Positions 179 through 18,500 of a stretch of 64,000 nucleotides of DNA are shown here, one piece after another (the stretch's first letter is position 1; each line of letters starts with the position of its first letter). The stretch comes from a bacterium (GTDB lineage Bacteria > SAR324 > XYD2-FULL-50-16 > G965216635), in contig OZ244188.1 in the NCBI GenBank assembly GCA_965216635.1, positions 136,001 to 200,000 of the forward strand. The letters are read 5' to 3'. Under the pieces are notes generated by a model, which saw nothing but the letters and a program-made list of their open reading frames with translations, was not told the DNA's origin and did no database searches. Made by a program: the position numbers and the translations under genes.

Positions 179-772
179 TTATTTTTTTTTGCTATTTTTA
201 TCTTTTTGTAGAGCAAACATAGGATTGTTTCTATCATCTGGATGCATCTTGTCTCTATCTTTTTTATCCAAATGCCAGAATGATTTAGAAATAGGAACAT
301 AGGAGTCTTTTTTATTGTGATGAAACGGACACCACCAAACTTCTACCACTTTTACTAGATAGCTACACCATTCTAGTAAAGCAATACTGATAGGACAATA
401 CCAAGTACAATTAAAAAGCCAAAATAATTTAGAATGATTCAAAGAAAAACGGCTTCCCATGACAATTTGAGTTTTGTAGGTATACCTATGAGATTTTGGA
501 TCTGGCATAAAATTTTTTAACTTTTTCAGAGTTTTACTAGCTCCCATTAATTTTAAATGCCAATAACAAGCGAGCCCAATAAGATATAAAAATATCCAAG
601 AACCTAGCAAAAAAGGAATATAAATTATAGGAATACCTAGAATTTTCAAAAAAATATTTCTTTTCTTAAAATCCTCACCAATAGAAACTCTATGGCATTC
701 CGAACAGCTCTTTGGTGAACTAAAAGGATTAGTTTCTTGAAAAGAGCTTTCTGAATCTTTATTTTTTTTCAT
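179..772 (-). CDS. Hypothetical integral membrane protein (197 aa), His/Cys/Trp-rich, immediately downstream of cfa
   Basis: ORF track; hydrophobic segments; co-oriented with the CFA synthase gene upstream. Confidence 0.4.
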   Translation of the reverse strand: MKKNKDSESSFQETNPFSSPKSCSECHRVSIGEDFKKRNIFLKILGIPIIYIPFLLGSWIFLYLIGLACYWHLKLMGASKTLKKLKNFMPDPKSHRYTYKTQIVMGSRFSLNHSKLFWLFNCTWYCPISIALLEWCSYLVKVVEVWWCPFHHNKKDSYVPISKSFWHLDKKDRDKMHPDDRNNPMFALQKDKNSKKK

Positions 773-951
773 AATTTTTTTATTTTATTATTTTTAAACC
801 AACAGATAAATCAACAAACCTTTGGAATATCCCAAAATTTTTTTTGTGAACAGGTATTACTAAAATCTACACAATTGAAAATGCCTGCCCCCAATAAAAG
901 GTAGCCAAGAATCGTTGGCTGATACCAAAAAAGAGCTAATTACTTCATTTT

Positions 952-2175
952 CTAACGACTAGTTCTCTCTCTGGTGAAATGAAATAATCTTTTTAAATTA
1001 CTAGGACGTATTCCTTTTTCTACACTTTTTTCTGCTATGATGTGGTAAGCTTGCATTGAGTTTGTCAGCATAGCATTATGTGTTCCCCATAAATACAAAT
1101 GAAATGTTCGCCAAGTTTTTTCCCCACAGATGCGAACTAATTTATCACGGTTGGCTTCAAACCGTTCTGCCCAGTGTTTTAAAGTCAAGGCATAATCCAT
1201 CCGTTCATCTATCACTTCTTTAATTTCCATACCGTGAAATAAAAACTCCCTAATTACATCTTGAAGGCACATAAGAGAATGTGCTCCTGGGTAAATAAGA
1301 ATGCGACCAAAATCCCCGAGATCATATTTTTCGTGTGAGGCTGATCCGTCTAAATATATTCTTCCACCCGGTTTTAAACAACTCCAGACCTTAGCAGCAA
1401 AACGCTGGTAATAGGGAATATGCTCAATCACACCATAGATCACAATCGCATCGTAAGGAGTTTTTGGTTTGTGGTTAAAAAAATCATCCAAATACACTCG
1501 GGCTTTCTGTTGCCAACCTTCTTCGTCAATCAATTTTTGGATACATTTTTTAGAATTATCAGCGATAGTGAGGCTGGTTACATCTATCCCGCGAGGCACA
1601 CAATAACGGGTAGCGCCACCCCAACCTCCGCCAATATCTAGCAGTCGCATACCTTTTTTGAGTTTGAGTCCACTATACATAGTCTCTAGTTTATGAACTG
1701 TAGCCTGCTCTAATGTTTCTGTGGGTTTTTTGTAGATGCACTGTGAATACATATGATATTTTTTATCAGTAAAAAGATAAAAAAATTCGTCATCAAAGCT
1801 ATAATGGTGCTGAATAGATTTTTTGTTGGATTTTATAACGGGACTGAAAAAAATTTTCCAGTTCAATTTCAAGCGAGGTATCAAAGTATTTTGCTTGATA
1901 AATTTTCGCAAAGCTAAAAACGCAGAAACCTCTCCTTTTATATCAAATTGACCTTCTATGTAGGCTCGTCCAATATTCAACTCCGTTATTCCTTTCCAGA
2001 GAAAAGCGGTAGAATGAAAAGTAACAGTAAACAGCGGTTTGCCTTTACCTATTTCAAGGCTTTCGTCTTGAGGAAATTTAAAACAACAAGAAATATCTAG
2101 TCTTTGAAGAAATTTAGCTATCTTGCTAGCGGCTGCGCCATCTTTGGTTTTAATTACAAGATTTTGTTTTGTCAT
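952..2175 (-). CDS. cfa: Cyclopropane-fatty-acyl-phospholipid synthase family SAM-dependent methyltransferase
   Basis: SAM-binding motif LLDIGGGWGG and overall CFA/mycolic acid cyclopropane synthase-like length (407 aa). Confidence 0.75.
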   Translation of the reverse strand: MTKQNLVIKTKDGAAASKIAKFLQRLDISCCFKFPQDESLEIGKGKPLFTVTFHSTAFLWKGITELNIGRAYIEGQFDIKGEVSAFLALRKFIKQNTLIPRLKLNWKIFFSPVIKSNKKSIQHHYSFDDEFFYLFTDKKYHMYSQCIYKKPTETLEQATVHKLETMYSGLKLKKGMRLLDIGGGWGGATRYCVPRGIDVTSLTIADNSKKCIQKLIDEEGWQQKARVYLDDFFNHKPKTPYDAIVIYGVIEHIPYYQRFAAKVWSCLKPGGRIYLDGSASHEKYDLGDFGRILIYPGAHSLMCLQDVIREFLFHGMEIKEVIDERMDYALTLKHWAERFEANRDKLVRICGEKTWRTFHLYLWGTHNAMLTNSMQAYHIIAEKSVEKGIRPSNLKRLFHFTRERTSR

Positions 2176-2414: not shown

Positions 2415-4697
2415 CTAGCGGCAAATAGCACTAAAAACCTCTACAGGCGTAGCAGGCGCATTCAGTTTGACTCTTTTATTTTTGGAAAAATAAGAAACTG
2501 CATCTTTGATTGCAAGCCAAACAGAATGAGCGAGCATCAAAGGAGGCTCTCCTACGGCTTTGGATTTAAAAATAGTATCTTCGGTATTAGAATAGGTTTT
2601 TAAATGAACTCTAAAGTCTTGCGGTAGATCGCTTACAGCTGGAATTTTGTAGGTATCAGGACCTGTCGCTAAAGCTCTACCATTTTCAGCCCACCCTAAT
2701 TCTTCACAAGTCAACCATCCCATACCCTGCACAAACCCTCCTTCTACTTGTCCTCTATCTACGGCTGGATTGATAGAATGCCCTATATCGTGCAAAATAT
2801 CTGTTCTTAAAACTTTGTATTCCCCCGTTAGAGCGTCTACTAAAACTTCAGATACCGAAGCTCCATAAGCAAAGTAGAAAAAAGGATGTCCCTTGTTGTT
2901 TTTTTTATCAAAATAAACTTTTGGTGTTTTGTAATAGCCCGTGCTAGATAGGGCTATTCTATTTTCATAAGCCAAAGCAATCAATTCTTCAAAAGTAATT
3001 TTTTTCTTTTTTTCTATCCAAACATTTCCTTGCTCAAAATGAATATTTTCTACTGGAGTTTTAAAATAAGCAGCTGCAAAGCGAATCAATCTTTCTTTTA
3101 TTTTTCTAGCTGCAATCTGAGCAGCCTTTCCATTTAAATCAGTTCCAGCAGAAGCAGCAGTAGGAGAAGTGTTAGGAACTTTATCGGTGCGGGTAGAAGT
3201 GATAGATATTTTATTTAAAGCAATTTGAAATTCTTCGGCTACAATTTGAGCTACTTTAATAAAAAGTCCTTGCCCCATTTCTGTGCCACCGTGATTGAGA
3301 TGCACACTGCCATCGCTATAGATATGAATCAAAGCCCCCGCTTGATTCATAAAGGTAACTGTGAAAGAAATACCAAACTTTACTGGAGAAATAGCGATCC
3401 CTTTTTTTAAAAAAGGGCTAGTTTGGTTAAATACAGCAACCTCTTGACGTCTTTTTTTATACTCCGAAGTTTGCACTAATTCTTCCACTAAACTAGAAAT
3501 TACTGGTTCCTCTATCTCCTGCTCGTAAGGAGTTATATTTCTACCATTTTTCTTTTCATAAAAATTGAGCCTCATAATATCTAAAGGATCTTTGTTTAGG
3601 TAACGTGCTATTTCATCTATAATATGCTCTATGTGGAGCATACCTTGAGGACCCCCAAATCCACGAAATGCAGTATTGGATACTGTATTTGTTTTACAAG
3701 GATAACCCTCTATTTTAACATTTTTGAAATAATAACAATTATCCGAATGCAACATAGCCCGATTTAAAATAGCTAAAGATAAATCCGCAGAATAACCACA
3801 TTGGGCGGCTAGTTTTATTTTAATAGCTTCAACCGCTCCCGCGTCATCAAATCCCACCTCGTAAGTATTATAAAAATTGTGTCTTTTGCCAGTAGTGATC
3901 ATATCGTCAAAACGGTTGAGTCTCATTTTCACTGGCAGCCGATTACGGTAAGCAAACAAGGCAGCAATACAAGCCGCTTGTGCAGCTTGAGTTTCTTTAC
4001 CCCCAAACCCTCCACCCATTCTTCTTGTATCTACTACTACTTGGGACATTTTTAGACCTAATACTTCGGCTACGAGTTTTTGAACTTCAGTAGGATTTTG
4101 AGTAGAGCAATAAAGAAAAATACCATCCTCCTGAGGCACAGCTAAAGAAATTTGTGTCTCTAAATAAAAATGATCCTGTCCTCCAATAAAAAGCTCCCCG
4201 CTCAAACGGTGTTTTGCTTTTTGCAAAGCAAGATTAGCGTTGCCCCGTTGTAGAGTTTGTGGCTCTAATACAAAAGATTTTTTCTGTAGTGCTTCTTTTA
4301 AATCCAAAATTGGCTCTAAAGGTTTATATTTTACTTTAATTTCTCGGACAGCCTTTCTTGCACTGTGCGTATCTTTAGCCGCCACTGCTACAATAGGCTG
4401 CCCGAAAAATTCTACTTTTTTATCTGCTAAAAGAGGGTCGCCATCAAACACTGGAGCAATATCTAATTTAGCTGGAACATCCTTCGCCTGCACAATATCT
4501 ACAACTCCTGCCATTTTTTGAGCTATAGAAATATCTACCTCTTGAATTTTAGCACAAGCCTGCTCACTACAAAAAAAACAGCAATGCAATGCCTCTGGAA
4601 AATCTAAAATATCATCTACATAAACAGCTTCACCGCTGACATGTTTTTCTGCACTATCGTGAGCGAATGGCTTTGTAATATAACTTAAATTTTTCAT
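2415..4697 (-). CDS. xdhB: Xanthine dehydrogenase, molybdopterin-binding subunit
   Basis: 760 aa; aldehyde oxidase/xanthine dehydrogenase a/b hammerhead and Mo-pterin binding regions (GFGGK, GQGL motifs). Confidence 0.85.
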   Translation of the reverse strand: MKNLSYITKPFAHDSAEKHVSGEAVYVDDILDFPEALHCCFFCSEQACAKIQEVDISIAQKMAGVVDIVQAKDVPAKLDIAPVFDGDPLLADKKVEFFGQPIVAVAAKDTHSARKAVREIKVKYKPLEPILDLKEALQKKSFVLEPQTLQRGNANLALQKAKHRLSGELFIGGQDHFYLETQISLAVPQEDGIFLYCSTQNPTEVQKLVAEVLGLKMSQVVVDTRRMGGGFGGKETQAAQAACIAALFAYRNRLPVKMRLNRFDDMITTGKRHNFYNTYEVGFDDAGAVEAIKIKLAAQCGYSADLSLAILNRAMLHSDNCYYFKNVKIEGYPCKTNTVSNTAFRGFGGPQGMLHIEHIIDEIARYLNKDPLDIMRLNFYEKKNGRNITPYEQEIEEPVISSLVEELVQTSEYKKRRQEVAVFNQTSPFLKKGIAISPVKFGISFTVTFMNQAGALIHIYSDGSVHLNHGGTEMGQGLFIKVAQIVAEEFQIALNKISITSTRTDKVPNTSPTAASAGTDLNGKAAQIAARKIKERLIRFAAAYFKTPVENIHFEQGNVWIEKKKKITFEELIALAYENRIALSSTGYYKTPKVYFDKKNNKGHPFFYFAYGASVSEVLVDALTGEYKVLRTDILHDIGHSINPAVDRGQVEGGFVQGMGWLTCEELGWAENGRALATGPDTYKIPAVSDLPQDFRVHLKTYSNTEDTIFKSKAVGEPPLMLAHSVWLAIKDAVSYFSKNKRVKLNAPATPVEVFSAICR

Positions 4698-4722
4698 CTT
4701 TAGAATTTTATGCCTCTAAGTT

Positions 4723-4824
4723 TACCAGCTAACCTGTTTTTATGCTTCATTGATTTTACCAGCTAACCTATCTTTATGCTTCATTGATTTTGCCAGCTAA
4801 TCTGTTTTTATGCTTCATTGATTT
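4723..4824. repeat. 34-bp tandem direct repeat x3 (TTACCAGCTAACCTGTTTTTATGCTTCATTGATT); the last copy overlaps and encodes the res C-terminus (…LAGKINEA*)
   Basis: Seen directly in sequence; each unit carries the same mini reading frame MKHKNRLAGKINEA* on the minus strand. Confidence 0.7.
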
Positions 4825-7800
4825 TGCCAGCTAATCTATCAAAATCATCCAACCAATATTTTCTATACTCTTCTGGAGCAAGAGTAGTGTCTCTCGTTTT
4901 GAAAAACAACTGAGTTTTTATTGTAAAGCCGTGAGACAAATATTTTTTTGCTTGGTTTTTATTTTCAATTTTTTCTTCAAATAGATTTTTATAGCCATCA
5001 ATTTTTCTTATCACATCGGTATGCTCTGTGCCTTTGGGATCTAAAAAAAGAATGGTATAATTCTTCTCTTTTTGCATCCAAAAAATAAAATCAGGGAAAA
5101 AATGGGATATAGAATTTGTCTTTGGGTTATAGTAAGGAATATGAATACTATCTAAAGTTTCGTCTAGTTTAGAAAACATCCACCAATCATAATTTTTAAA
5201 AACACTGTTATCTTTTTGCAAATATTCTTCTAAATTTTCAATAAACTTTATTTCGCTCGGCACATCAATAATATGGTTTAAGTAATCTACTTTTTCTTGC
5301 TCTGCTACAATTAGAGGATGGTAGTAATGGTTGGCTAAATATTTTATTTTAATTTTTTGATTGTTGAGCTCAAAAGTTTTTGCCGATTCGAATTTTTCAA
5401 ATAAAGTGAGTTGTTCGTCGTAATCTTTTCTTTTTCCCGTTTTGAATAATTCTTCTAATTCTAATTCTTTTGCTGCACTAGATTTATTTAGTTTTTGATT
5501 TTTTATAATTTCCAGTTTCTCTTTTAATTCTTCAATTTTATTTCCATCTTTGAATTTTATTTCTTTAAAATGCACAATTTCTGCTTCTAGTTTTTTAAAC
5601 CCATCAACCTCTTGGTTTTGAATGCTGAAATAATCTAAGATACTTTTGAGGTGTAAATCTGGTTTATCAATATTTCTTGTCTCGTCAAAATTGTAATATT
5701 TGCTTTGATTCTGCATACTTTCTGACACTTTTTTTAAGACTTTTATCTCGCATTCGTTTTTTAGCAAAACGATTTTATCTCCTAAATGTTCAAATAGTTT
5801 TTGAGTTTGGGTAAGGTCTTTTTTACTAACCGAATACTTTAAAACAGTGCTGGATTCTGCCAATATTTTATTGGATTTTTGATAAACAGGTACGAGTAAC
5901 AAACGATTTTTAATTTTTTCGTTTATTGCAAATAAGTCTCCCAAATTATGTTCTGGCTTTTGCTGTTCTTCTTGGAGTTTTTCTATTATATTTTTTAAAT
6001 TTTCTGCGTTGGTTCCAAAAACAAACAGACTTTCTAAGGCTAAAATATTTTGTTTTATTTTATCAAACAGCTCTTGCTCTGCTTCTTCAGCGGCTATTAA
6101 GTTTTGCAATCTTTTTCTTTTATTTTTTAGAGGCTCTATCCGCAACCCACGCCCTACCGATTGCAAAACAAATTTTTTAGAATCTTTTGCCATTCCTATA
6201 TTTACAAATAAAATAAGATTGGGTCTATTAGAATCCCACCCTTCGTAAAAAGAACGCGAGCCCATCAAAATATTTATATCCGAATCGTCTTGGTTGATTT
6301 TTTTGAATATACTTTCATTTTCCAAACTTTCTATGATTTGATAATCTGCCACTGTGTCTTTTAACCAGCCAGAAATATCTCCAATTTTTATCAAAGCAAA
6401 AGGTTTCTCCGAAGTCTGTAGTTTGAAAGCAATCTCTTTTTTATTTTTTGGAACCTTTAAAATTTCAATTTTGCCGAAATTATTTGCATTGAATACAGCT
6501 TGCAGAATTTTCTTGTAGCTTATTTTTGAAAGTATATTGCTATCTATTTCTATTTTTGTATTTTCAAATAGATATTTATTATTGTCCGAAAATTCAGCAA
6601 GCAATTCAGTTTTAGCTTCTTCCAGTAAATTTGGTTTAATTTGGTTGTTAGCTATTTTTTCTAGTTCTGCAAAGAAAAGTTTTAAGTCTGGTTCTTTAAT
6701 AATTTTATCCAAATCAGATTTTTTTGTATTGACGGAATTAACCAGTGTCAAGAGCAAGGGGCGGTGATAAAGACTGCCATTTGTTTTTCTTATTTTTTTA
6801 AAATGCTTGTAGCTATAGGTTTGTAAAAGCAGAGTTTTTAAAACAATTTTTTGTTTTTCTATTTCGGAGAAGTTATCTTGTTCCTTAAAAGCAGTTACTT
6901 TCTGTTTTGAAACATAGATATGCTTGCCGTATCCAGCTCCTATAAATTTGGCGAGATTAAAATCAAAAACGCAGCTAGCGTAGTCTCTAGCATCGGTAAA
7001 AGTAGCAGAGAAATTAAACAAAAAACCGTTCCTTGAAAGAATAGAATAAAAAATCTGCCGTTTGCTTTCTTCTTTGTCTCCTTTGTGGGCTTCGTCTAAA
7101 AGAATATACCATTTCCCAAAGTTATCGTAATTTTTAAAATTCACAATGTTTTGCTTGTGTTCATCAGAAATTAAATCAGAGCGGTAATAAAAAATAGTTA
7201 TCTCTTTTTTGGAATAGGGCAGAGCATTTTCGTGTTTTACGCTCTCGTATTCTTTCAAACTTTTTAAGAGGATCTTGGTCTCAAAATTATCTCTATTAAA
7301 CTCTGCTATATGCTCTTTGAACTGTTGTAAAAGATCTTCTCGGTGCGCCAAAAACAAAATATCGTTTTTAGGAATTTCTCCTTTTCTTATCAGCTCTCCT
7401 AAAAGATGAATAAGTTTTACAATCACAAGCGTTTTACCAGAGCCAGTTGCCATCCAAAAACTCATCCGATTGATAAAAGAAGCGAAAGAGATTTTGTCGC
7501 CTGAAACTGAGTATTCCTCACTGTATTCCAAAAGATATTTAGTCGTTTTGTTTTCTTTGCTTTTCTTTTTGCTGCCTTTTTGATTCAAGGTATAATCAAA
7601 ATTTTCATCGTAGTTATTGTTGCGGTATTTTTGAAAAAAATTATTTTTTCTAGTCTGGTAGTCTTTGTGATTTTCGCTGTAAAACAAGTGCAGTCCTTTC
7701 AGTGAATTTTCTAGTGCTTCTTTTTGAAAATCGTAAAGTCTTTTTTTTTGAGAAAAACTTTTTAAATCAAAATTTTGCCATTCTGCTGGCAAGTTGGCAA

Positions 7801-7849
7801 AAGAAATTTTTTTAACTATTTCCTGTAGATAATGCTCCATTATTCCCAC
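4808..7849 (-). CDS. res: Type III restriction endonuclease, Res subunit (SF2 helicase-nuclease)
   Basis: Walker A ATGSGKT, DEAH-box-like LLDEAHKG, 1013 aa, 10-nt overlap with upstream mod gene. Confidence 0.85.
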   Translation of the reverse strand: MGIMEHYLQEIVKKISFANLPAEWQNFDLKSFSQKKRLYDFQKEALENSLKGLHLFYSENHKDYQTRKNNFFQKYRNNNYDENFDYTLNQKGSKKKSKENKTTKYLLEYSEEYSVSGDKISFASFINRMSFWMATGSGKTLVIVKLIHLLGELIRKGEIPKNDILFLAHREDLLQQFKEHIAEFNRDNFETKILLKSLKEYESVKHENALPYSKKEITIFYYRSDLISDEHKQNIVNFKNYDNFGKWYILLDEAHKGDKEESKRQIFYSILSRNGFLFNFSATFTDARDYASCVFDFNLAKFIGAGYGKHIYVSKQKVTAFKEQDNFSEIEKQKIVLKTLLLQTYSYKHFKKIRKTNGSLYHRPLLLTLVNSVNTKKSDLDKIIKEPDLKLFFAELEKIANNQIKPNLLEEAKTELLAEFSDNNKYLFENTKIEIDSNILSKISYKKILQAVFNANNFGKIEILKVPKNKKEIAFKLQTSEKPFALIKIGDISGWLKDTVADYQIIESLENESIFKKINQDDSDINILMGSRSFYEGWDSNRPNLILFVNIGMAKDSKKFVLQSVGRGLRIEPLKNKRKRLQNLIAAEEAEQELFDKIKQNILALESLFVFGTNAENLKNIIEKLQEEQQKPEHNLGDLFAINEKIKNRLLLVPVYQKSNKILAESSTVLKYSVSKKDLTQTQKLFEHLGDKIVLLKNECEIKVLKKVSESMQNQSKYYNFDETRNIDKPDLHLKSILDYFSIQNQEVDGFKKLEAEIVHFKEIKFKDGNKIEELKEKLEIIKNQKLNKSSAAKELELEELFKTGKRKDYDEQLTLFEKFESAKTFELNNQKIKIKYLANHYYHPLIVAEQEKVDYLNHIIDVPSEIKFIENLEEYLQKDNSVFKNYDWWMFSKLDETLDSIHIPYYNPKTNSISHFFPDFIFWMQKEKNYTILFLDPKGTEHTDVIRKIDGYKNLFEEKIENKNQAKKYLSHGFTIKTQLFFKTRDTTLAPEEYRKYWLDDFDRLAGKINEA

Positions 7850-10308
7850 CAGATTAAAGGTTTAATTTTTTTGTAGTCTAGCTCTTTTGTGTTTTCTTTG
7901 CTTCCGTCTGTAAACAAAACTTCGTCTTCAGTGATCATTTTGATCCATTTGCCGTTTAGGCAAGATAGGGTTTCTGCTATATCAACATTGGGATAAAGTT
8001 TTTTTAAGTCTACAGTCGCTTTGTTTTTTTGGTAGTCAATTTCTAAACATTTTAGCATTTTTTCGTCCTTCATAAAAACATAGTCTTGGTAGGCTTTGTC
8101 ACTCGTTTGGTTAAATAAATTTGCATCGCCGTATTTTGTGTTTTCCAAAGTTTCTTCGTACTGCTCTAGCTCGTAGTACTTGAAAAACCCGCCTCCTTTG
8201 TAGTCTTTGGTATCCTTTGAAATACCGCTTTTATCGTAGGCTAAAACTTCTTTCATTCTCGGTAAAACTACGCTATAAAAATGCTCTCCCATTTCTACAC
8301 CGAGCCATTTTCTGCCGAGTTTATGTGCCACCGCTGTTGTAGTGCCAGAGCCGAGGAAATAGTCAAAAATTAAATCTTTTTCTTTTGAGCCTGTATTGAT
8401 TACTCTGGCTAATAATTTTTCTGAGTTTTCTGTTGTAAAACCCCAAGTTGAAGAATAGCCTACCCAATCAGTCCAATTATCTGTTAATTTTTGTGTTTCG
8501 GTTTCTTCTATTTGTGGTGTTTTATTATCTCCATTACTCCATTTTATTTTATTTTCTTTTTCTAACTCAAATATAAATTTTTGATTCAAAGCCCAATGTC
8601 TACCGTCTGGAGGCAATAACTCTGTATTAAGAATTATACGCGCCCTTGTTGTTGCTTTCCCATTTCTTTTTTCAGACTGGGCTCTTATATTTTTTTTTGA
8701 AAAAAGTTTGATATATTCATCAGGTATAGGAGACCATCTAATACCTGGTAAGTGCATAGCTCTCCATTTTGGATTATCTCTTTTTTTTGTAGCTGTAGAA
8801 AAAACAAATTGATTAGACTTTGAATAGAAAAAAAGAGAATCATGTCCACTATGATATTTATTAATTTGCTCTGTTAACTTTGCCGATTTACTAATAATAA
8901 TTTCATTTTGGTAGTTAAATATTTTATCCAACAAACACCTCACAATCCAGTTTCCGTGATAATCGCAGCGCACAAAAATACTTCCGCTATTATGCAAAAC
9001 TTCTTTGGCAAGTTTTAAGCGGTTTTCAAGGAGTGTAGCCCAGCTAGAATCCTTGTATTTGACTAGATAGTCGTAGTCTGCGTTGTTTTCTAAATTAAAA
9101 GGGGGGTCAATATAAATCGTTTGTATTTTTTCTTTGAATTTAGGCAGGATAGTATTGAGTGCTTGGTAGTTTTCACTTTTTATCAGCCAGCCGTCTAGTT
9201 GCTTATCCAAATCGTCAAATAAGCCTAAAATTTCTAGCTCCAAATCTTTAAAGTGTTTGGTATCTATAGGCAAATGCTTGTGTTTTTTGGTTAAACTATT
9301 GCCGTTTAAATCTGTTTCAAAAATAGTTTCTATCTTAAAATCACTCTCTACAATTCCGAGTTCTTGCCATTCTTGGATCTGCTCTTTTATTCCTCCGTGT
9401 TTGAGTATTTTTTGTAGCAGAATTTTATCTGCGATTCTATCTAGCGTCAAAACATAATTGCTATTTTTGGCAAACTTCGGTTTGTTCCAAATCTTGACTA
9501 GCTCGTTTTCAAACTGAGCGACAAAATCAATGATCTTAAAAGCAATGTTTTTCAGTATTTGTAATTGGTTTATTCTTATCGCAGACCATTCTTTAGCCCC
9601 TTCCCAAAGATATTGATAGCTCCAGAGTTTAAACTGCTCTTCCAAAAAAGCCTTAGCGTTTTTGTTAATGAAAAAATCTACCTCTGCTTGTCTATTGAAA
9701 ATACGAAAAGCTTTTTCTAATTCTTCTTCCTTGATAAAAACTCCTGCTTTTTTTATGGCTCTTAAGATATCTTCTGTTTTTGTTTTTGTACCATTATCGG
9801 AGTGAAGCGCAGCAAAGCAAATTGTTCTATCTTCCTTTACTTCCTTAAACTCAAAAACAAGAGATTTTTTCTCGTTCGCTTTTTTAGGTTTAATATTTTC
9901 TGCGTCAAAATAGAATTTGAAAACATCAAATTCTACGAGCGTGCTTCTAAAAATCCTATCGCTTTTGACATAGTAAAGCATCTGAGTTTTCCAAAACAAA
10001 ACTACATCTTTTTCGTCTGTATAGACCTTTTCATAAATGTTGTTATGAAAGGGAGTAGAGTTAAAATAGATAGAACCGCTTTCGCTAAAATAACGACTAA
10101 AAAAAGAATGGAGTTTGTCAAAAAGCTCCTCTCTAAAATTGGAATGTTCTTTTAGAGCTTTATAAATATCTTGTTTTAGCAAAATTTCTATCTGCTCGTA
10201 ATATTTTGATTTTATTTGCATCAAATTGATAAAACCACCTTTGCCGTCAATTTTTGCACCGATAAATATATCTTGCAGTGCTTGAAAAAATTTTTGTTCT
10301 TTCGTCAT
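7840..10308 (-). CDS. mod: Type III restriction-modification system Mod subunit (N6-adenine DNA methyltransferase)
   Basis: DPPF motif (IYIDPPFN) and downstream SAM-binding region (FDYFLGSGTT); 822 aa; operonic with res. Confidence 0.85.
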   Translation of the reverse strand: MTKEQKFFQALQDIFIGAKIDGKGGFINLMQIKSKYYEQIEILLKQDIYKALKEHSNFREELFDKLHSFFSRYFSESGSIYFNSTPFHNNIYEKVYTDEKDVVLFWKTQMLYYVKSDRIFRSTLVEFDVFKFYFDAENIKPKKANEKKSLVFEFKEVKEDRTICFAALHSDNGTKTKTEDILRAIKKAGVFIKEEELEKAFRIFNRQAEVDFFINKNAKAFLEEQFKLWSYQYLWEGAKEWSAIRINQLQILKNIAFKIIDFVAQFENELVKIWNKPKFAKNSNYVLTLDRIADKILLQKILKHGGIKEQIQEWQELGIVESDFKIETIFETDLNGNSLTKKHKHLPIDTKHFKDLELEILGLFDDLDKQLDGWLIKSENYQALNTILPKFKEKIQTIYIDPPFNLENNADYDYLVKYKDSSWATLLENRLKLAKEVLHNSGSIFVRCDYHGNWIVRCLLDKIFNYQNEIIISKSAKLTEQINKYHSGHDSLFFYSKSNQFVFSTATKKRDNPKWRAMHLPGIRWSPIPDEYIKLFSKKNIRAQSEKRNGKATTRARIILNTELLPPDGRHWALNQKFIFELEKENKIKWSNGDNKTPQIEETETQKLTDNWTDWVGYSSTWGFTTENSEKLLARVINTGSKEKDLIFDYFLGSGTTTAVAHKLGRKWLGVEMGEHFYSVVLPRMKEVLAYDKSGISKDTKDYKGGGFFKYYELEQYEETLENTKYGDANLFNQTSDKAYQDYVFMKDEKMLKCLEIDYQKNKATVDLKKLYPNVDIAETLSCLNGKWIKMITEDEVLFTDGSKENTKELDYKKIKPLIWWE

Positions 10309-10312
10309 AATT

Positions 10313-11812
10313 TTAAAATTCAGTAACTCTAGTTTTCACCTTAGTTTTTCCCTGCTCTGTTGTTTCCAAATAAAATTTATAAAGTAGATTTTGAGATACA
10401 GCACTGCGGTATTCTTTCGTTGCTCTCAAATCGCTAATAGGAGAGTAGTCTTTTTGCAAAGTTTTCATTGTAGCCATTATTGTCTCTTCTTCCCATAGTT
10501 TGCCTAGCAAAGCCTGTTCGGTTTTATAAGCTCTTTTGGGGAAGGCAGACATACCTGAAAAAGCGATGGCTATTTTTTGAATGCTGTTAGCATCATCTAG
10601 TTCAAGTTGGAAAGCTCCGCAAAGTGCAGATATATCATCGTCTATTCTTTTGGATATTTTGTAAATTCTAAAATACTGTTTTTCTGTGGGTTTTGGAATT
10701 TGAATCTGTTCTATAAACTCCCCTTTTTTCAGGGCTGTTTTTCTGTAGTCAAGAAAAAAATCTGTAGCTAGAATCACTCTAGTTTTTGCTGCGTGCCCAG
10801 TAGATACTTGGCAAGCTTGCCTTAAAACAAAACGCGCCCCCCAAACCAATAGAGCTGGTGGAGTGTCGGCTACTGCTGAAGCGTTGGCGAGGTTGCCGCC
10901 AATACTAGCTTGATTTCTAATTTGTGGAGAAGCAAATCTTGTCAACAGCAAGGCAAAGTCGGGGTAATATTTTTCAAAAATAAAAAAAAGTTTAGCAAGT
11001 GGCACAGCAGATCCTAAATGGAGTTCGGTTTTTGTTTCCTTGATAATATTTAATTCTGCCACTCTGTGTAAATCAATAATGGCATAAAATCTCTGATGCC
11101 TCTGGGTGATTGCTAGAGATAAATCCGTTCCTCCACAGCTAAGTTTGGCATCTGGATTTTGTAGTAGAAGGTGAATGAAATTTTTTAAGTTTGTAGGAAG
11201 ATAGTAATTTTTTATAAGAGTATCTCCGCCTAGCGCTGTTTTGGCTGGAGATTCTTTAAGGCTATGCAGTAGTTTTAAAGTTTTTTTCTCCTCGCACGGG
11301 TGGGCATCTGCTGGTGTATCTGCTGGTGTATCTATTGGGGCTTGAAGAGCAGCATCTATAATTGCTCTGTAACCAGTGCAGCGGCAAAGATTCCCAGTCA
11401 AACCTTCCAAGACCTGTTCACGAGTAGGTTTTATGTGGTTTTGAAACAGCGCAAATAAAGACATCACAAAACCAGGTGTGCAAAAACCACATTGGGAGCC
11501 GTGATAATCTACCAAAGCTTGTTGCACAGGGTGTAACCCTTTTTTATCTTTTAAACCCTCTACTGTTATCAACTGATTGCCTTCTAAATTGCCCAGCAAG
11601 GCTATGCAAGAGTTAATCGTCCGATATTTTAGTTTTGTATATTTAGAATCTGGCTCTGCGAGAACTACAGTGCAGGCTCCACAATCACCACTAGCGCAAC
11701 CTTCTTTAGTGCCACAAAAACCCTCTTTTCGTAAATACTCCAAAATCGTTGTATTGGCGTTTTCTTCTTGGATAGTGCGGATTTCATTTTTGTTAAGTAG
11801 GAATTGGAGCAT
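10313..11812 (-). CDS. xdhA: Xanthine dehydrogenase small subunit (2Fe-2S ferredoxin + FAD-binding domains). True start probably MLQFLLNK at 11812; the ORF-track N-terminal extension to 11908 is likely spurious
   Basis: Two [2Fe-2S] cysteine clusters (CGxGxCGAC…, CGFCTPG, CRCTGY) followed by a CO-dehydrogenase flavoprotein-like FAD domain. Confidence 0.85.
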   Translation of the reverse strand: MLQFLLNKNEIRTIQEENANTTILEYLRKEGFCGTKEGCASGDCGACTVVLAEPDSKYTKLKYRTINSCIALLGNLEGNQLITVEGLKDKKGLHPVQQALVDYHGSQCGFCTPGFVMSLFALFQNHIKPTREQVLEGLTGNLCRCTGYRAIIDAALQAPIDTPADTPADAHPCEEKKTLKLLHSLKESPAKTALGGDTLIKNYYLPTNLKNFIHLLLQNPDAKLSCGGTDLSLAITQRHQRFYAIIDLHRVAELNIIKETKTELHLGSAVPLAKLFFIFEKYYPDFALLLTRFASPQIRNQASIGGNLANASAVADTPPALLVWGARFVLRQACQVSTGHAAKTRVILATDFFLDYRKTALKKGEFIEQIQIPKPTEKQYFRIYKISKRIDDDISALCGAFQLELDDANSIQKIAIAFSGMSAFPKRAYKTEQALLGKLWEEETIMATMKTLQKDYSPISDLRATKEYRSAVSQNLLYKFYLETTEQGKTKVKTRVTEF

Positions 11813-11953
11813 AATAAAAAGTATAATTATTGTTTTTATTAAAAACACCCTAATAAACCAAAGCCTACTAATAGTAAAATAGATAATCAAGAAAAAAAAC
11901 GCTGGCAATACCTATTTGATGATTTTAAGAGCTCTTATCCTTTTAATGGATGA

Positions 11954-12040
11954 TTTTTATTTTTTTGGGGCGCGTCAGTCCAGTTAGCAGTTGGTGGGTT
12001 GGTTGTGACTATATTGCAACTTTTAAAAACTGCGAGTTAA
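11954..12040 (+). pseudogene. 3' remnant of a Bdr-like gene (encodes FLFFWGASVQLAVGGLVVTILQLLKTAS*) directly upstream of the OMP array
   Basis: Manual translation; matches the C-terminal TM cassette of the Bdr-like paralogs (…LLFWGVSVQLAVGGLVVTILQFLQN). Confidence 0.6.
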
Positions 12041-12237
12041 AATTTTTTTTTGCTTTTCGTGAAAACAAAAAAAACACAAAGCTCTCACTAAAAATAAACC
12101 CTTGCATTAAGTTATATTTTGGCTAAACTAGGAAAATGTTAAAAAAAAATAAAGAATTATTTTTTTTTGTTTGCTTTTAATTTTTTTTCAGTTATATTTC
12201 TATTTTTACCTTCTTCTAACCTTTATTAAATATTATT

Positions 12238-13491
12238 ATGCAAGAAGTAACAAAAAGGGCGTTAAATAGCTCTCTTAAAAATTGTGAGACAAAATTAGCT
12301 CAATTTAACCAACGGGCTGGTTTTCAACGGGCGAGTTTTCGTGGAGCGTTATTGCTAGGTGCGGTTTTGTTGAGTTTGCTATTTGTAGGTAATCTGCAAG
12401 CACAGAGCAGCGTTAGCACAAAACAGGGATTTTTCGCGGGTATTGTCTATCTACAAGGATTCGGAGTAGATACCACAAAAACTAGCACAAGCTCTGCTAC
12501 TGGCTATGAAATCACTGGCTATGGAGAGGCAACCACTGGAATAGATTTAACTGGTGGAAATCCTAACTGGCCTACTGCAACAGCAACTGGAATGAGAGCT
12601 TTACTAAAAGCAAACTGTGAAACAGGAATAACGAGGATTACACAAACAGATGGAAATTACTTTTTCCCCGTGAGTACCTTTAGCTCTTTTAATGAGATTA
12701 AGGATGCTACTGTAACATCCCTAGACAGTGTTACTGGAGTTCGATTTAGAAATGGAAAAGACCCAAGTGAAGACTCCCATTGTCGTAGGCATTTTTACGG
12801 TGATCTTTCCTCTGGAAGAACCGCTATTAATTTTTCTGCCTATGAGATAGCGACTCCAGATTCGCTTTCAAAATCCCCTCTCCCCAGCACAGAGAGCGAC
12901 GCACTCAACGGTGTCGGTCTGCAAGTCGGCTGGCGAGGAGAAAAATGGAGAGCCTCCTTGACTCACTTTACTGGCAAGGGTGGAGCTAACGAGCTCGTCA
13001 ATACAGTGGTGATGGCGGAGTATTTTTTTCACGAGGAGTTTTTTGCAGGAGGCGGTCTAGCGAGTATGAAGCTTACCAATGGCTCTACTAGTGCTTCGGC
13101 TACTAGTCCCGTGTTAACGGTAGGCTATAAGGAGAACTTAACTCCCAACCTATTCTTTAATATTAGCTTGACGAAGTATATCTCGGGGGTTTCTCTGAGC
13201 CGTTCTGCTCCAGCTTCTGCTCCGATTCCCACTGGCAGAACTTTTAGCGAAACACAGACTGCACGCGGTGATTCAGCCTTTCTTGGAGGCCTAGTTTATA
13301 TAAATGACAGGGGAAGTGCATTTAAATTCAGTTATGATGTTGGTGCTATTGTAGATAGCAGAATAGAAGTAACCCAAGTCCGCACAAGAGATGTGGAAAT
13401 ACAAGAAGTTGAAATTCCAGCAGCGGAGAAAATTGAAGCTGAAATCAAAGCCCCCGTAGTCGTCAGCATTTCCCTGCTTTGGCGCTTTTAA
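12238..13491 (+). CDS. Paralogous outer-membrane beta-barrel protein, copy 1 (conserved N-terminal MQEVTKRALNSSLKNCETK extension, hydrophobic signal-like segment, C-terminal …VVVSISLLWRF)
   Basis: C-terminal aromatic-X-Phe OMP signature, alternating beta-strand pattern, 5-member paralog family with shared upstream region. Confidence 0.6.
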   Translation: MQEVTKRALNSSLKNCETKLAQFNQRAGFQRASFRGALLLGAVLLSLLFVGNLQAQSSVSTKQGFFAGIVYLQGFGVDTTKTSTSSATGYEITGYGEATTGIDLTGGNPNWPTATATGMRALLKANCETGITRITQTDGNYFFPVSTFSSFNEIKDATVTSLDSVTGVRFRNGKDPSEDSHCRRHFYGDLSSGRTAINFSAYEIATPDSLSKSPLPSTESDALNGVGLQVGWRGEKWRASLTHFTGKGGANELVNTVVMAEYFFHEEFFAGGGLASMKLTNGSTSASATSPVLTVGYKENLTPNLFFNISLTKYISGVSLSRSAPASAPIPTGRTFSETQTARGDSAFLGGLVYINDRGSAFKFSYDVGAIVDSRIEVTQVRTRDVEIQEVEIPAAEKIEAEIKAPVVVSISLLWRF

Positions 13492-13597
13492 CAGAGTTGT
13501 TGAAAAAAATGCAAAATTCTTTTTTTTTGTTTGCTTTTAATTTTTTTTCAGTTATATTTCTAATTTTAATCTCTTCTAACTTTTATTAAATATTATT

Positions 13598-14902
13598 ATG
13601 CAAGAAGTAACAAAAAGAGCGTTAAAAACACCTCTTAAAAATTGTGAGACAAAAGTAGCCCAATTTAATCAACGGGCTGGTTTTCAATGGGCTGGTTTTC
13701 AATGGGCTGGTTTTCAATGGGCTGGCTTCAAATGGAATGGCGTTGTATTGCTAGGTGCGATTTTGTTGAGTTTGCTATTTGTAGGTAATCTGCAAGCACA
13801 GAGCAGCGTTAGCACAAAACAGGGATTTTTCGCGGGTATTGTTTATCTACAAGGATTCGGAGTAGATACCACAAAAACTAGCACAAGCTCTGCTACTGGC
13901 TATGAAATCACTGGCTATTCAAACGACGAAACTAGAATAGACGCAACAGGTGGGAATATTTATTTGAATAAGATAGTACTAACTAGCATCAGAGTTTTAT
14001 TCAAAGAAAACTGTGAAGCAGGAACAACGAGTATTACACAAACAGGTGGAGATGCAAATTCAAATGGAAATTACTATTTTGCCTCGAAGCACTTCAGCTC
14101 TTTTAATGAGATTAAGGATGCTACTGAAACAGCCAAGGGAGGCACTATTGTTGAAACTGGATTTAGAAATGGAACAGTGGCAACTCATGACTCCTATTGT
14201 CGCAGGTACTTTTACGGAGATCTTTCCTCTGGAAGAACCACTATTAGTTTTTCTGCCTATGAGATAGCGACTCCAGATTCGCCTTCAAAACCCCCCGTCA
14301 CCAGCACAGAGAGCGACGCACTCAACGGTGTCGGTCTGCAAGTCGGCTGGCGAGGAGAAAAATGGAGAGCCTCTCTGACTCACTTTACTGGCAAGGGTGG
14401 AGCTAACGAGCTCGTCAATACAGTGGTGATGGCGGAGTATTTTTTTCACGAGGAGTTTTTTGCAGGAGGCGGTCTAGCGAGTATGAAACTTACCAATGGA
14501 TCTACTAGCGCCTCGGCTACTAGTCCCGTGTTAACGGTAGGCTATAAGGAGAACTTAACTCCCAACCTATTCTTTAATATTAGCTTGACGAAGTATATCT
14601 CGGGTATTTCTCTGAGCCGTTCTACTAATCCAGCTCAGATTCCCACTGGCGCCCCTCTTATAAGAAAAACACAGACTAAAGATGGTGATACAGTGTACAT
14701 TGGAGGAATAGTTGAGAGGAATGAAGCACGGTTTCGATATAGCTCCGCATTAGAAAGTGTGTCAGATTCCAGAATAGAAGCAACCCAAGTCCGTAGCCGA
14801 GATGTGGAAATACAACAAGTCACAACTCCAGCAGCGCAGAAGATAGAAGCCGAAATCAAAGCCCCCGTAGTCGTCAGCATTTCCCTGCTGTGGCGCTTTT
14901 AA
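13598..14902 (+). CDS. Paralogous outer-membrane beta-barrel protein, copy 2 (4 copies of GFQWA pentapeptide repeat in N-terminal extension)
   Basis: As copy 1; 15-bp in-frame tandem repeat GCTGGTTTTCAATGG. Confidence 0.6.
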   Translation: MQEVTKRALKTPLKNCETKVAQFNQRAGFQWAGFQWAGFQWAGFKWNGVVLLGAILLSLLFVGNLQAQSSVSTKQGFFAGIVYLQGFGVDTTKTSTSSATGYEITGYSNDETRIDATGGNIYLNKIVLTSIRVLFKENCEAGTTSITQTGGDANSNGNYYFASKHFSSFNEIKDATETAKGGTIVETGFRNGTVATHDSYCRRYFYGDLSSGRTTISFSAYEIATPDSPSKPPVTSTESDALNGVGLQVGWRGEKWRASLTHFTGKGGANELVNTVVMAEYFFHEEFFAGGGLASMKLTNGSTSASATSPVLTVGYKENLTPNLFFNISLTKYISGISLSRSTNPAQIPTGAPLIRKTQTKDGDTVYIGGIVERNEARFRYSSALESVSDSRIEATQVRSRDVEIQQVTTPAAQKIEAEIKAPVVVSISLLWRF

Positions 14903-15009
14903 CAGAATTGTTGAAAAAAATGCAAAATTCTTTTTTTTTATTTTCTTTTTTATTTTTTTTCAGTTATATTTCTATTTTTACCTTCTTCTAACCTTTATTA
15001 AATATTATT

Positions 15010-16353: not shown

Positions 16354-16383
16354 TAGAGTTGTGTAGGCACCGAATCACCTAAA

Positions 16384-16521
16384 CTTTTGAATTTGCATTC
16401 TGTTTAGCCTATGCAGCGTTAAAAAAAAATTTTAACTCTTGAAATATTACATATATTCCTGCGAGCTAAAATTTTTTTTTGCCTTGCCTAGCCGTCACAT
16501 AACGCAAATTCAAAGGTCTAT
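16384..16521. mobile_element. MITE-like element inserted in the loop of the post-OMP3 hairpin (GGCACCGAATCACCTAAAC | element | ACCTAAACTCGGTGCC), with an apparent 8-bp duplication ACCTAAAC
   Basis: The uninterrupted version of the same hairpin exists on the other strand near 57005-57035; element body is >90% identical to the 59556-59699 copy. Confidence 0.65.
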
Positions 16522-16805
16522 TACCTAAACTCGGTGCCATTCAAAAAACCACCTCCCCGCCAAACCGCATCCCCTCCAAAAACACCTAAAAAAACAAAAT
16601 TGCAGGGACATTTTTTTTGCTTTTCGTGAAAACAAAAAAAACACAAAGCTCTCACTAAAAATAAACCCTTGCATTAAGTTATATTTTGGCTAAACTAGGA
16701 AAATTTTAAAAAAAGATAAAAAGTTATGTTTTTTTTGTTTGCTTTTAATTTTTTTTCAGTTATATTTCTATTTTTACCTTCTTCTAACCTTTATTAAATA
16801 TTATT

Positions 16806-18089: not shown

Positions 18090-18396
18090 CAGAAAAAAAC
18101 CTACAATGGATGTTGCAAAGCATAACATGTAGAGACGCCCTACACGGGCGTCTTATATGATGTGCATAAACCACAAAAAAAACTATTTTAATAAAAGTTC
18201 TGAATTTATGAGACGCTCGTATAGAGCGTCTCTACAGACCTACATAAAATAAAAAATAACGCCCCGCATTTCCCCAAACATCTTCTTAAGAACGGGGACA
18301 CATTTTTACCCAAAATGGTTGAATAAGCAAAAAATAACGTTCCCGCAAAAACACCTAAAAAACAAAATTGCAGTGGGCATTTTTTTAATTTTGCCC

Positions 18397-18402
18397 TATA
18401 AT
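18397..18402 (+). promoter_or_regulatory. Putative -10 box (TATAAT) of the Bdr-like array promoter, inside the conserved module CAAAATTGCAGNGGNCATTTTTTTAATTTTNCCCTATAATCTTTTTATTTT
   Basis: Module conserved (reverse-complemented) upstream of the two minus-strand Bdr-like transcription units at about 55625-55690 and 56890-56945. Confidence 0.35.
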
Positions 18403-18500
18403 CTTTTTATTTTTTGGGGCTTGACTTCACTAGAATAGTTTGCTAAAATAAAACAACCAAAATAAAATGTTAAGAAAAATAAAATGTTAAGAAAAATAAA

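What the first reader, a model, noticed from the sequence alone, without database searches (positions are those of the whole stretch)
4808..10308. Complete Type III R-M cassette inserted precisely between xdhA and xdhB
xdhA (10313-11812) and xdhB (2415-4697) are normally contiguous. Here mod starts 4 bp after the xdhA stop, res overlaps mod by 10 nt, and the cassette ends 110 bp before the xdhB start, all on the same strand. Either a mobile R-M module integrated into the xdh operon without destroying it, so xdhB would depend on read-through or a new promoter, or the R-M genes are transcriptionally coupled to purine catabolism. Both res and mod also carry A9 homopolymer tracts in coding sequence (near 7741-7749 and 8690-8698, plus strand T-runs), which are potential slipped-strand switches, though such tracts are common in AT-rich DNA.
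Basis: partly seen in the sequence, partly recalled or inferred. Interest (0 to 1): 0.6.

Follow-up and report, generated by a model that had tools for sequence, protein, structure and literature searches.

The report
Old restriction-modification cassette inside xdh operon
A complete, apparently functional Type III-like DNA restriction-modification gene pair sits exactly between the two subunit genes of xanthine dehydrogenase, but it is an old, vertically inherited insertion shared with a sister species rather than a recent arrival, and there is no specific sign that it switches on and off.

Summary
On the minus strand the order is xdhA (10313-11812), mod (7840-10308), res (4808-7840), xdhB (2415-4697), with a 4-nt gap, a TAATG overlap and a 110-nt spacer. 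All four genes look intact.

Adjacent xdhA-xdhB is the norm. In 80 diverse genomes, none has a Mod or Res homologue within 10 kb, and xdhB follows xdhA in 68. The next relatives, at 51-55% XdhA identity, also lack the cassette.

The insertion is not recent. A sister species in an ENA metagenome has the same xdhA-mod-res-xdhB order. Window and sister Mod are each other's closest relatives (NJ bootstrap 100/100). Synonymous divergence of mod and res (0.43-0.65) is close to that of xdhB (0.70) and below that of xdhA (1.2), with dN/dS about 0.15-0.24.

Since insertion, the Mod target-recognition domain was replaced in one lineage. In the window, the res 3' tail was tandemly duplicated (34 bp x 3.4). 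In the sister population a deletion between two AAAAATTTTTT repeats removed the cassette and left a mod-start relic.

The A9 tracts exist, but they are no denser than in other coding DNA of the window and are not conserved. Co-transcription with xdh is inferred, not shown. This is a new example of a known phenomenon.

The parts
10313..11812 (-). xdhA, xanthine dehydrogenase small (Fe-S/FAD) subunit, 499 aa. The native C-terminus (...KTRVTEF*) is intact.
   Evidence: TIGR02963 552 bits, above the cut-off. The C-terminus aligns to the end of its homologues. Identical to P0001.
10309..10312 (-). 4-nt spacer (AATT) between the xdhA stop and the mod start; left border of the cassette.
   Evidence: Sequence read. 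The sister species has a 42-52-nt spacer here.
7840..10308 (-). mod, an 822-aa beta-class N6-adenine DNA methyltransferase of a ~800-aa Type III Mod family, with a ~370-aa family-specific N-terminal region.
   Evidence: PADLOC MTase_III PDLC03638 895 bits over the full length. Pfam PF01555 at residues 395-679. Motif IV DPPF at 401 and motif I FLGSG at 651. Weak match to EcoP15I Mod 4zcf_A, E 7.5e-9. The N-terminus MTKEQKF is conserved across the family.
8452..8931 (-). Mod target-recognition domain (residues ~460-619), a mosaic segment replaced relative to the sister species.
   Evidence: 48% identical to the sister (rank 25 of 51) but 77% to P0123. The flanking parts are 80% and 87% identical to the sister, rank 1. 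TRD dS 2.1, against 0.43-0.65 for the flanks.
4808..7840 (-). res, 1010 aa from ATG 7840 (an alternative GTG at 7849 gives 1013 aa). SF2 DEAH ATPase plus a C-terminal PD-(D/E)xK-type nuclease motif. The start overlaps the mod stop as TAATG.
   Evidence: Pfam ResIII 62.9 bits. PADLOC REase_III 88 bits. GSGKT at 133, DEAH at 249, SAT at 278, QSVGRGLR at 560, PDF...FLDPKG at 916-936. All family-invariant columns are kept. Identical to P0241.
5033..5095 (-). Putative nuclease motif of Res (residues 916-936, PDFIFW...FLDPKG).
   Evidence: Motif search. P916, D917, D934, P935 and G937 are invariant, and K936 nearly so, in 24 homologues.
7741..7749 (-). A9 tract in res codons ~31-33 (SQKKR).
   Evidence: The sister has A6 at this position.
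8690..8698 (-). A9 tract in mod codons ~537-539 (SKKN), inside the TRD.
   Evidence: It lies in a stretch absent from the sister's TRD.
4721..4834 (-). 34-bp tandem repeat, 3.4 copies at 92% match. It duplicates the last codons of res (…LAGKINEA*), the stop and a few following bases, and fills most of the res-xdhB spacer.
   Evidence: TRF score 193. Three near-exact matches against 0 expected, and none elsewhere in the window. The Res family C-termini end ...YWFDNFxxFAxKI.., so the unit is res-derived. The sister has a single homologous copy.
4698..4807 (-). 110-nt res-xdhB spacer; right border of the cassette.
   Evidence: No promoter- or terminator-like site was found by the scan. RNA fold z-score -1.15. 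The sister's spacer is 8 nt.
2415..4697 (-). xdhB, xanthine dehydrogenase molybdopterin-binding subunit, 760 aa, intact.
   Evidence: TIGR02965 1164 bits, above the cut-off. 89% identical to the sister's XdhB.

Best explanation
A Type III-like restriction-modification cassette (mod then res) was inserted once into the short spacer between xdhA and xdhB. This happened in the common ancestor of the window's organism and a sister species, after that ancestor split from relatives with about 51-55% XdhA identity. The cassette has since been inherited vertically with the operon and kept functional by purifying selection.

By homology, Mod methylates adenine in an asymmetric site. Mod-Res complexes would use the DEAH ATPase and the C-terminal PD-(D/E)xK nuclease to cut DNA that carries unmethylated sites.

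The cassette lies 4 nt after xdhA, mod and res overlap, and no terminator-like or promoter-like element lies at either border. The most likely expression mode is therefore one xdhA-mod-res-xdhB transcript, with xdhB made by read-through. This step is inferred, not shown.

Three things happened after insertion. The Mod target-recognition domain was exchanged in one lineage, which probably changed specificity. In the window lineage, the res 3' tail was tandemly duplicated. In the sister population, a deletion between two 11-nt AAAAATTTTTT repeats (mod codons 5-8 and the last res codons) removed the cassette and restored xdhA-xdhB adjacency, leaving a 10-codon mod/res hybrid relic.
For: Shown:
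(1) Gene identities and intact catalytic motifs.
(2) xdhA-xdhB adjacency without R-M in 68 of 80 diverse loci, with 0 of 80 carrying Mod or Res. The next relatives L002/L003, L091 and L092 also lack it.
(3) The sister species has xdhA-mod-res5' on L004 and res3'-xdhB on L006.
(4) Window and sister Mod are reciprocal nearest neighbours with NJ bootstrap 100/100. The sister's Res is 74% identical, against at most 66% for any other homologue.
(5) Nei-Gojobori divergence, window against sister: mod 1-443 dS 0.65; mod 620-822 dS 0.43; res N-terminal half dS 0.57; xdhB dS 0.70; xdhA dS 1.2. dN/dS is 0.15-0.24 for the cassette.
(6) GC3 of mod (0.32) and res (0.28) falls within the host range of 0.22-0.37.
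(7) TRD mosaic.
(8) The deletion junction in L001, L093 and L095 equals the mod 5' end of L004 joined to the res 3' end of L006 at AAAAATTTTTT. The retained MDKEQKFF is the family-wide Mod N-terminus.
(9) Foreign origin: Mod and Res are 60-73% identical to proteins named from Bacteroidia, Atribacteria, Patescibacteria, Thermodesulfobium and Desulfurella, and to a copy on an Athalassotoga plasmid.

Inferred: co-transcription, from the spacing and the absence of terminator- or promoter-like sites at the borders.
Against: - There are no expression data, so an internal promoter inside res or mod cannot be excluded. Weak sigma-70-like matches exist, for example at 4968-4939, and the consensus scan may not suit this organism.
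- Only one sister lineage was found, so 'ancestral' rests on two lineages.
- All sister contigs are foldback chimeras from one metagenome assembly. The deletion allele could in principle be a template-switch artefact at the 11-nt repeat. However, it recurs in three contigs that carry two different xdhA-mod spacer sequences.
- Res shows no sequence match to any solved structure, including EcoP15I Res, and its structure model was too poor to use. The Type III mechanism is therefore assigned by motifs, gene order and PADLOC profiles only.
- No insertion signature remains: no long flanking repeats and no integrase or transposase. The insertion mechanism is unknown.
Confidence: 0.8

Rival explanations
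1. Recent, lineage-specific insertion of a mobile R-M module into the window organism's xdh operon.
For: The cassette's GC (31.6%) is lower than that of xdhA and xdhB (38-39%). The Mod and Res families are spread across phyla and occur on a plasmid. Most xdhAB loci lack the cassette.
Against: The same gene order occurs in a sister species whose XdhA is only 71% identical. Cassette dS (0.43-0.65) is close to xdhB's (0.70). GC3 equals the host's, and the low total GC comes from GC2, that is, from amino-acid composition. No mobility genes or flanking repeats remain.
Confidence: 0.04
2. Two independent insertions of related cassettes at an xdhA-xdhB hot spot, or replacement of the whole cassette by homologous exchange, in the two lineages.
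For: The TRD has clearly been exchanged with a foreign allele, so recombination with incoming homologues does occur at this locus. Overall Mod identity to the sister (73-77%) is only slightly above that to foreign Mods (72-74%).
Against: Outside the TRD the sister ranks first (80% and 87%, against at most 74-78% for others). NJ bootstrap is 100/100. Res N-terminal identity is 74%, against at most 66% for others. The conserved parts have a dS no larger than the flanks'. The borders are homologous, including the res-tail-derived TTAGCnnGnAAA...CTTAAAG sequence just before xdhB.
Confidence: 0.08
3. The R-M pair is a phase-variable system (a phasevarion) switched by slippage in the A9 tracts of mod and/or res.
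For: An A9 tract in mod meets the formal >=9 mononucleotide criterion used for Type III mod genes (PMC5909438). Both tracts are in coding sequence.
Against: A/T runs of >=9 occur at 0.36 per kb in the cassette and 0.39 per kb in the other coding DNA of the window. Those other genes include hisS (A12), ABC transporters and gmrSD (A13). The res tract is A6 in the sister, and the mod tract lies in a stretch absent from the sister's TRD. Both genes are in frame. The mod tract lies mid-gene in the TRD, not in a dedicated 5' repeat region.
Confidence: 0.07
4. The embedding is functional: defence is deliberately co-regulated with purine catabolism, or the cassette is retained because its position makes imprecise loss costly.
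For: The arrangement has been retained under purifying selection since the species split. The junctions are tight in both species. The only loss allele seen is one that restores a compact xdhA-xdhB junction.
Against: There is no regulatory or expression evidence. Only two lineages are known. Loss alleles appear frequent in the sister sample (3 contigs against 2), so retention is not obligatory. Passive hitch-hiking in an operon explains the same data.
Confidence: 0.12

Closest known systems
R-M gene complexes inserted into operon-like clusters or at gene start/stop boundaries (Furuta, Abe & Kobayashi 2010, PMC2853133)
   Same: A foreign R-M unit sits at a translation stop/start boundary inside an operon-like structure and leaves the target genes intact. 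Its homologues are scattered across distant taxa. An allelic 'empty' site exists in a relative.
   Different: There is no long target duplication, no flanking inverted repeats and no mobility genes. The insertion is old and has co-diverged with the flanks. Here the empty allele is demonstrably a secondary deletion that carries a mod relic, not the pre-insertion state.
Classical Type III R-M systems (EcoP15I/EcoP1I; PDB 4ZCF)
   Same: Gene order mod then res, with overlapping stop and start. Mod is a beta-class m6A methyltransferase with motif order IV-TRD-I. Res carries SF2 DEAH ATPase motifs and a C-terminal PD-(D/E)xK-type motif.
   Different: Mod is ~180 aa longer, with a ~370-aa N-terminal region not seen in EcoP15I Mod. 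Res has no detectable sequence similarity to EcoP15I Res or to any PDB chain. Its precomputed Pfam annotation includes PF27151 'YagJ'. No biochemistry is known from this work.
Allelic TRD exchange in Type III mod genes (e.g. Haemophilus/Neisseria modA alleles; PMC1557822, PMC5909438)
   Same: Conserved 5' and 3' parts with a hypervariable central TRD that is exchanged between alleles.
   Different: The conserved parts are only 80-87% identical here because this is an inter-species comparison. There is no dedicated simple-sequence repeat region.

Membership tests
Type III restriction-modification system | Mod subunit is a beta-class N6-adenine methyltransferase (motif IV DPPY/F, then the TRD, then motif I FxGxG). 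| tested here: met
   DPPF at residue 401, TRD at ~460-619, FLGSG at 651. PF01555 113.5 bits. PADLOC MTase_III PDLC03638 895 bits over the full length. Weak EcoP15I Mod match, E 7.5e-9.
Type III restriction-modification system | Res subunit has SF2 helicase-like ATPase motifs plus a C-terminal PD-(D/E)xK endonuclease. | tested here: met
   GSGKT, DEAH, SAT and QxxGRGxR motifs, plus PD...D-P-K at 916-936. These are invariant or nearly so in 24 homologues. PF04851 ResIII 62.9 bits.
Type III restriction-modification system | Detectable homology of Res to characterised Type III Res enzymes. | tested here: inconclusive
   PADLOC REase_III gave only 88 bits over residues 292-636. No PDB sequence hit was found with the single sequence or the profile. 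The AlphaFold model had mean pLDDT 46 and was unusable.
Type III restriction-modification system | mod immediately upstream of res in one operon. | tested here: met
   TAATG stop/start overlap at 7840-7842. The same is seen in L004 and L007-L009.
Type III restriction-modification system | Asymmetric recognition site, hemimethylation, ATP-dependent cleavage requiring two inversely oriented sites. | not testable with these tools
   Needs a methylome and biochemistry.
Phase-variable Type III mod (phasevarion) | Simple-sequence repeat in the mod ORF of a length known to slip (>=9 for mononucleotides; PMC5909438). | tested here: met
   A9 at 8690-8698. The criterion was read. The tract is at background density for this genome.
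Phase-variable Type III mod (phasevarion) | Tract is conserved within the mod group, and its length varies between strains or reads with ON/OFF consequences. | tested here: not met
   For conservation: the sister lacks both tracts. Length variation cannot be tested without reads.
R-M insertion with long target duplication / IR-flanked R-M transposon-like unit (PMC2853133) | Long direct repeats duplicating the target, or terminal inverted repeats, flanking the R-M unit. | tested here: not met
   There are no flanking repeats of >=14 nt spanning the two borders. Only a 7-nt TAAAATT occurs at both borders, which is at chance level in AT-rich DNA. The 34-bp repeat is a local tandem duplication of the res tail.
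XdhAB-type xanthine dehydrogenase operon | Intact small (Fe-S/FAD) and large (Moco) subunit genes above the curated equivalog cut-offs. | tested here: met
   TIGR02963 552 bits against 467; TIGR02965 1164 bits against 849.5.

The most novel reading that the evidence does not exclude
The R-M system is expressed as part of the xanthine dehydrogenase transcript. Restriction and methylation levels would then follow purine-catabolic regulation, giving a metabolically gated defence or epigenetic state. Alternatively, the operon position itself would stabilise the cassette, because only a near-precise deletion keeps xdhB expressed. That would explain why the cassette has persisted since before a species split.
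Probability: 0.12. Interest if true: 0.6.

Novelty: new member of a known kind. Interest (0 to 1): 0.35.

Why it matters
This is a clean natural example of a defence cassette becoming a long-term, vertically inherited resident inside a metabolic operon, between the two subunit genes of one enzyme. Three later events can be read from the sequences: a swap of the Mod recognition domain, a tandem duplication of the res tail, and a microhomology-mediated deletion that leaves a diagnostic relic.

It also shows that an 'empty' site in a relative need not be the ancestral state. That matters for methods that infer insertions from presence/absence comparisons.

It does not reveal a new kind of system or mechanism.

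Tried and rejected
1. Exact look-ups of the window's Mod and XdhA found no retrievable contig.
2. The first genome-contig scan with XdhA alone found nothing. The metagenome-contig scan found only a 33%-identical fragment. No further close relatives could therefore be added beyond the ENA sample ERZ26869290.
3. The organism could not be named. The cluster look-up returned no names or accessions. The only Rfam hit in the window is one tRNA, so there is no rRNA marker.
4. The structure prediction of Res (24-sequence alignment) gave mean pLDDT 46 and pTM 0.33. No fold search was run, because its results would have been meaningless.
5. Sequence and profile searches of Res against the PDB found nothing.
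6. The RNA fold of the res-xdhB spacer is not more stable than shuffles, z -1.15. An attenuator or terminator role for the 34-bp repeat was dropped.
7. The promoter/terminator scan found 40 promoter-like sites against 30.4 expected, and none in either border spacer. It is uninformative for an organism whose genes generally lack Shine-Dalgarno sequences and whose promoter type is unknown.
8. I considered that the mod-like start in the sister's empty site might be native spacer sequence. I rejected this because MTKEQKF[YF] is the conserved N-terminus of the Mod family across phyla, and because the sequence after the junction equals the sister's res 3' end.
Full report
**1. What is in the window**

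Four minus-strand ORFs occupy 2415-11812.
- The ORF at 10313-11812 is XdhA, matching TIGR02963 at 552 bits (cut-off 467).
- The ORF at 2415-4697 is XdhB, matching TIGR02965 at 1164 bits (cut-off 849.5).
- Between them lies an 822-aa methyltransferase. It matches Pfam N6_N4_Mtase and, end to end, PADLOC MTase_III PDLC03638 at 895 bits.
- Next to it lies a ~1010-aa ResIII/DEAD-type protein, matching PADLOC REase_III at 88 bits.

- The xdhA stop TAA is followed by 4 nt and then the mod ATG at 10308.
- The res stop is at 4808-4810.
- A 110-nt spacer separates res from the xdhB ATG at 4697.

One correction concerns the res start. The database copy of this protein (P0241, 1010 aa) and the homologue alignment place it at ATG 7840. 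Mod and res therefore overlap as TAATG rather than by 10 nt.

Both T9/A9 runs are at the stated coordinates.

**2. Are the genes intact?**

Yes, as far as sequence can show.
- Mod has motif IV (DPPF, residue 401), then the TRD, then motif I (FLGSG, residue 651). This is the beta-class order typical of Type III Mods.
- Res has GSGKT, DEAH, SAT and QSVGRGLR motifs, and a C-terminal PDF...FLDPKG motif.
- The window's Res keeps every column that is invariant in 24 homologues.
- XdhA's C-terminus aligns to the very end of its homologues, so the insertion lies strictly downstream of the xdhA stop.

**3. Is xdhA-xdhB adjacency the rule?**

A profile scan of species-representative genomes returned 80 xdhA loci from many phyla.
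- In 68 of them, xdhB follows on the same strand. The distance between the ends of the two alignments is 6-784 nt, and at most 260 nt in all but four.
- In none of the 80 is there a Mod or Res homologue within 10 kb.
- The next-closest XdhA relatives, at 55%, 53% and 51% identity, also have adjacent genes. These are L002/L003, L091 and L092.

**4. The decisive comparison: a sister species**

The closest XdhA relative (P0002, 71% identity) comes from ENA metagenome ERZ26869290. Contigs from that one sample show both states of the locus.
- L004 carries xdhA, a 52-nt spacer, mod (P0130, 73% identical) and the 5' half of res (74% identical).
- L006 carries the 3' half of res, then 8 nt, then xdhB.
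- L001, L093 and L095 carry xdhA directly followed by xdhB.

L001 and L004 are 98.4% identical across xdhA. Their alignment stops 24 nt inside mod.

The spacer of the 'empty' contigs reads ATGGATAAAGAACAAAAATTTTTTGCTAGATAAAACTATG.... Its first half is the mod start of L004. Its second half is the res end of L006. The two are joined at an 11-nt AAAAATTTTTT that occurs in both genes.

MTKEQKF[YF] is the conserved N-terminus of this Mod family in unrelated phyla. The empty site is therefore a deletion derivative, not the ancestral state.

One caveat applies. All these contigs are foldback chimeras, so template-switch artefacts are conceivable. Against that, the same junction occurs in three contigs that carry two different xdhA-mod spacer sequences. 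The presence of the cassette at this site in two organisms does not depend on the deletion allele.

**5. One insertion, vertically inherited**

- Among 52 Mod sequences, the window and the sister are reciprocal nearest neighbours and group in 100 of 100 NJ bootstraps.
- Res is 74% identical to the sister, against at most 66% for any other homologue.
- Nei-Gojobori estimates of window against sister:

| Region | dS | dN/dS |
|---|---|---|
| mod residues 1-443 | 0.65 | 0.17 |
| mod residues 620-822 | 0.43 | 0.15 |
| res N-terminal half | 0.57 | 0.24 |
| xdhB | 0.70 | 0.09 |
| xdhA | 1.2 | 0.13 |

The cassette has therefore diverged about as much as its flanks, under purifying selection.

GC3 of mod (0.32) and res (0.28) lies inside the host range of 0.22-0.37. 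The cassette's low total GC comes from second codon positions.

No long flanking repeats and no mobility genes remain.

**6. Foreign origin**

Mod and Res are 60-73% identical to proteins that sources name from Bacteroidia, Atribacteria, Patescibacteria, Thermodesulfobium, Desulfurella and others. Mod is also 64% identical to a mod gene, followed by a DEAD/DEAH helicase gene, on an Athalassotoga plasmid. XdhA's named relatives are only 45-49% identical.

**7. Changes after insertion**

(a) TRD swap. Mod residues ~460-619 are 48% identical to the sister (rank 25 of 51) but 77% identical to P0123. The flanking parts rank the sister first. The TRD's dS is 2.1. This is the TRD exchange known for Type III mod alleles (PMC1557822, PMC5909438).

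(b) Tandem duplication in the window. The window has a 34-bp unit in 3.4 copies at 4721-4834. The unit consists of the res tail, LAGKINEA*. The family ends ...YWFDNFxxFAxKI... The sister has one homologous copy, which abuts xdhB.

(c) The deletion in the sister population described in section 4.

**8. Expression**

Neither border has a terminator-like or promoter-like site. The spacer RNA is not unusually structured. The sister's res-xdhB gap is only 8 nt. Genes in this window generally lack Shine-Dalgarno sequences, so their absence before mod and xdhB carries no information. A single xdhA-mod-res-xdhB transcript is the simplest reading, but it remains an inference.

**9. Phase variation**

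An A9 tract formally meets the threshold used by Atack et al. (PMC5909438). Four points weigh against it being a switch:
- A/T runs of >=9 occur at 0.36 per kb in the cassette and 0.39 per kb in the other coding DNA of the window.
- Those other genes include hisS (A12) and gmrSD (A13).
- The res tract is A6 in the sister, and the mod tract lies in a stretch missing from the sister's TRD.
- Both ORFs are open.

**10. Comparison with the known, and verdict**

R-M units inserted at start/stop boundaries and into operon-like clusters have been described (PMC2853133). This case differs in three ways. It is old. It lacks any target duplication. The 'empty' allele is a secondary deletion.

The system meets the testable defining features of Type III R-M. 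The exception is detectable homology of Res to characterised enzymes, which was inconclusive.

The finding is real and tidy, but it is a new member of a known kind. Interest is 0.35.

Noticed in passing
window 11813-22065: About 10.25 kb separates xdhA from an ABC-transporter gene (22066-24024, minus strand). In the sister species that gene directly abuts xdhA (L093: the ABC gene ends at 1495 and xdhA starts at 1564). The extra block holds four tandem paralogues of 417-447 aa. These are 61-78% identical to each other, have signal-peptide-like N-termini, no Pfam hit, and 42-44% GC against 34.6% for the window. It also holds five tandem paralogues of ~170-200 aa, which are coiled-coil proteins with a C-terminal hydrophobic segment.
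   Followed up: partly
window 52873-58344: A second array of the same two paralogue families lies in inverted orientation. It has seven small genes (two of them 100% identical, at 53459 and 54502) plus one large one (57088-58344). The two inverted arrays could support recombination or variation of surface proteins.
   Followed up: partly
window 36633-38285 (tract at 36763-36775): A GmrSD-type Type IV restriction gene (PF03235 plus PF07510) carries an A13 tract on its coding strand, near codon 504 of 550. It is a better slipped-strand candidate than the A9 tracts in mod and res.
   Followed up: no
window 38355-39728 (tracts at 38498-38509 and 38453-38461): The histidyl-tRNA synthetase gene contains A12 and A9 tracts in frame. 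This shows that long A runs are tolerated in essential genes of this genome.
   Followed up: partly
window, gene starts throughout (e.g. 12238, 13598, 15010, 48651): Almost no gene has a Shine-Dalgarno-like sequence upstream. The starts sit in A/T-rich contexts, and three of the large paralogues share an almost identical ...ttctaacctttattaaatattattATG leader. The organism could not be named: it has a 2.39-Mb genome, the window is 34.6% GC, and the sources give no names.
   Followed up: partly
window 11306-11333 and XdhA residues ~337-344: xdhA carries a perfect 12-bp tandem repeat (x2.3, encoding TPAD repeats) in the linker between its Fe-S and FAD domains. It also has an 8-residue insertion (ACQVSTGH) absent from all aligned homologues.
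   Followed up: no
window 179-2175 and loci L002, L091, L092: No xdhC (PF02625) gene follows xdhB in the window; a cyclopropane-fatty-acid-synthase-like methyltransferase does. L091 and L092 also lack an adjacent xdhC. L002 and L003 have one.
   Followed up: no
L005 2124-10834: In another member of this Mod/Res family, mod and res are separated by an AAA_15/AAA_21 ATPase, a 249-aa protein and a DUF6119 protein, and are preceded by an HTH gene. The family therefore also occurs as a larger defence island.
   Followed up: no
L001, L004, L006, L093, L095 (ENA ERZ26869290): All sister-species contigs are foldback (inverted-duplication) chimeras. Some have frameshifted genes, which is typical of amplification or long-read artefacts. 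Homopolymer lengths in them, such as A7T6 at the sister's res end, are unreliable.
   Followed up: partly
window 10309-10315 and 4707-4713: The heptamer TAAAATT occurs at both borders of the cassette: at the xdhA stop plus spacer, and 10 nt before the xdhB ATG. It could be a remnant of a short target duplication, but it is at chance level in this AT-rich DNA.
   Followed up: no
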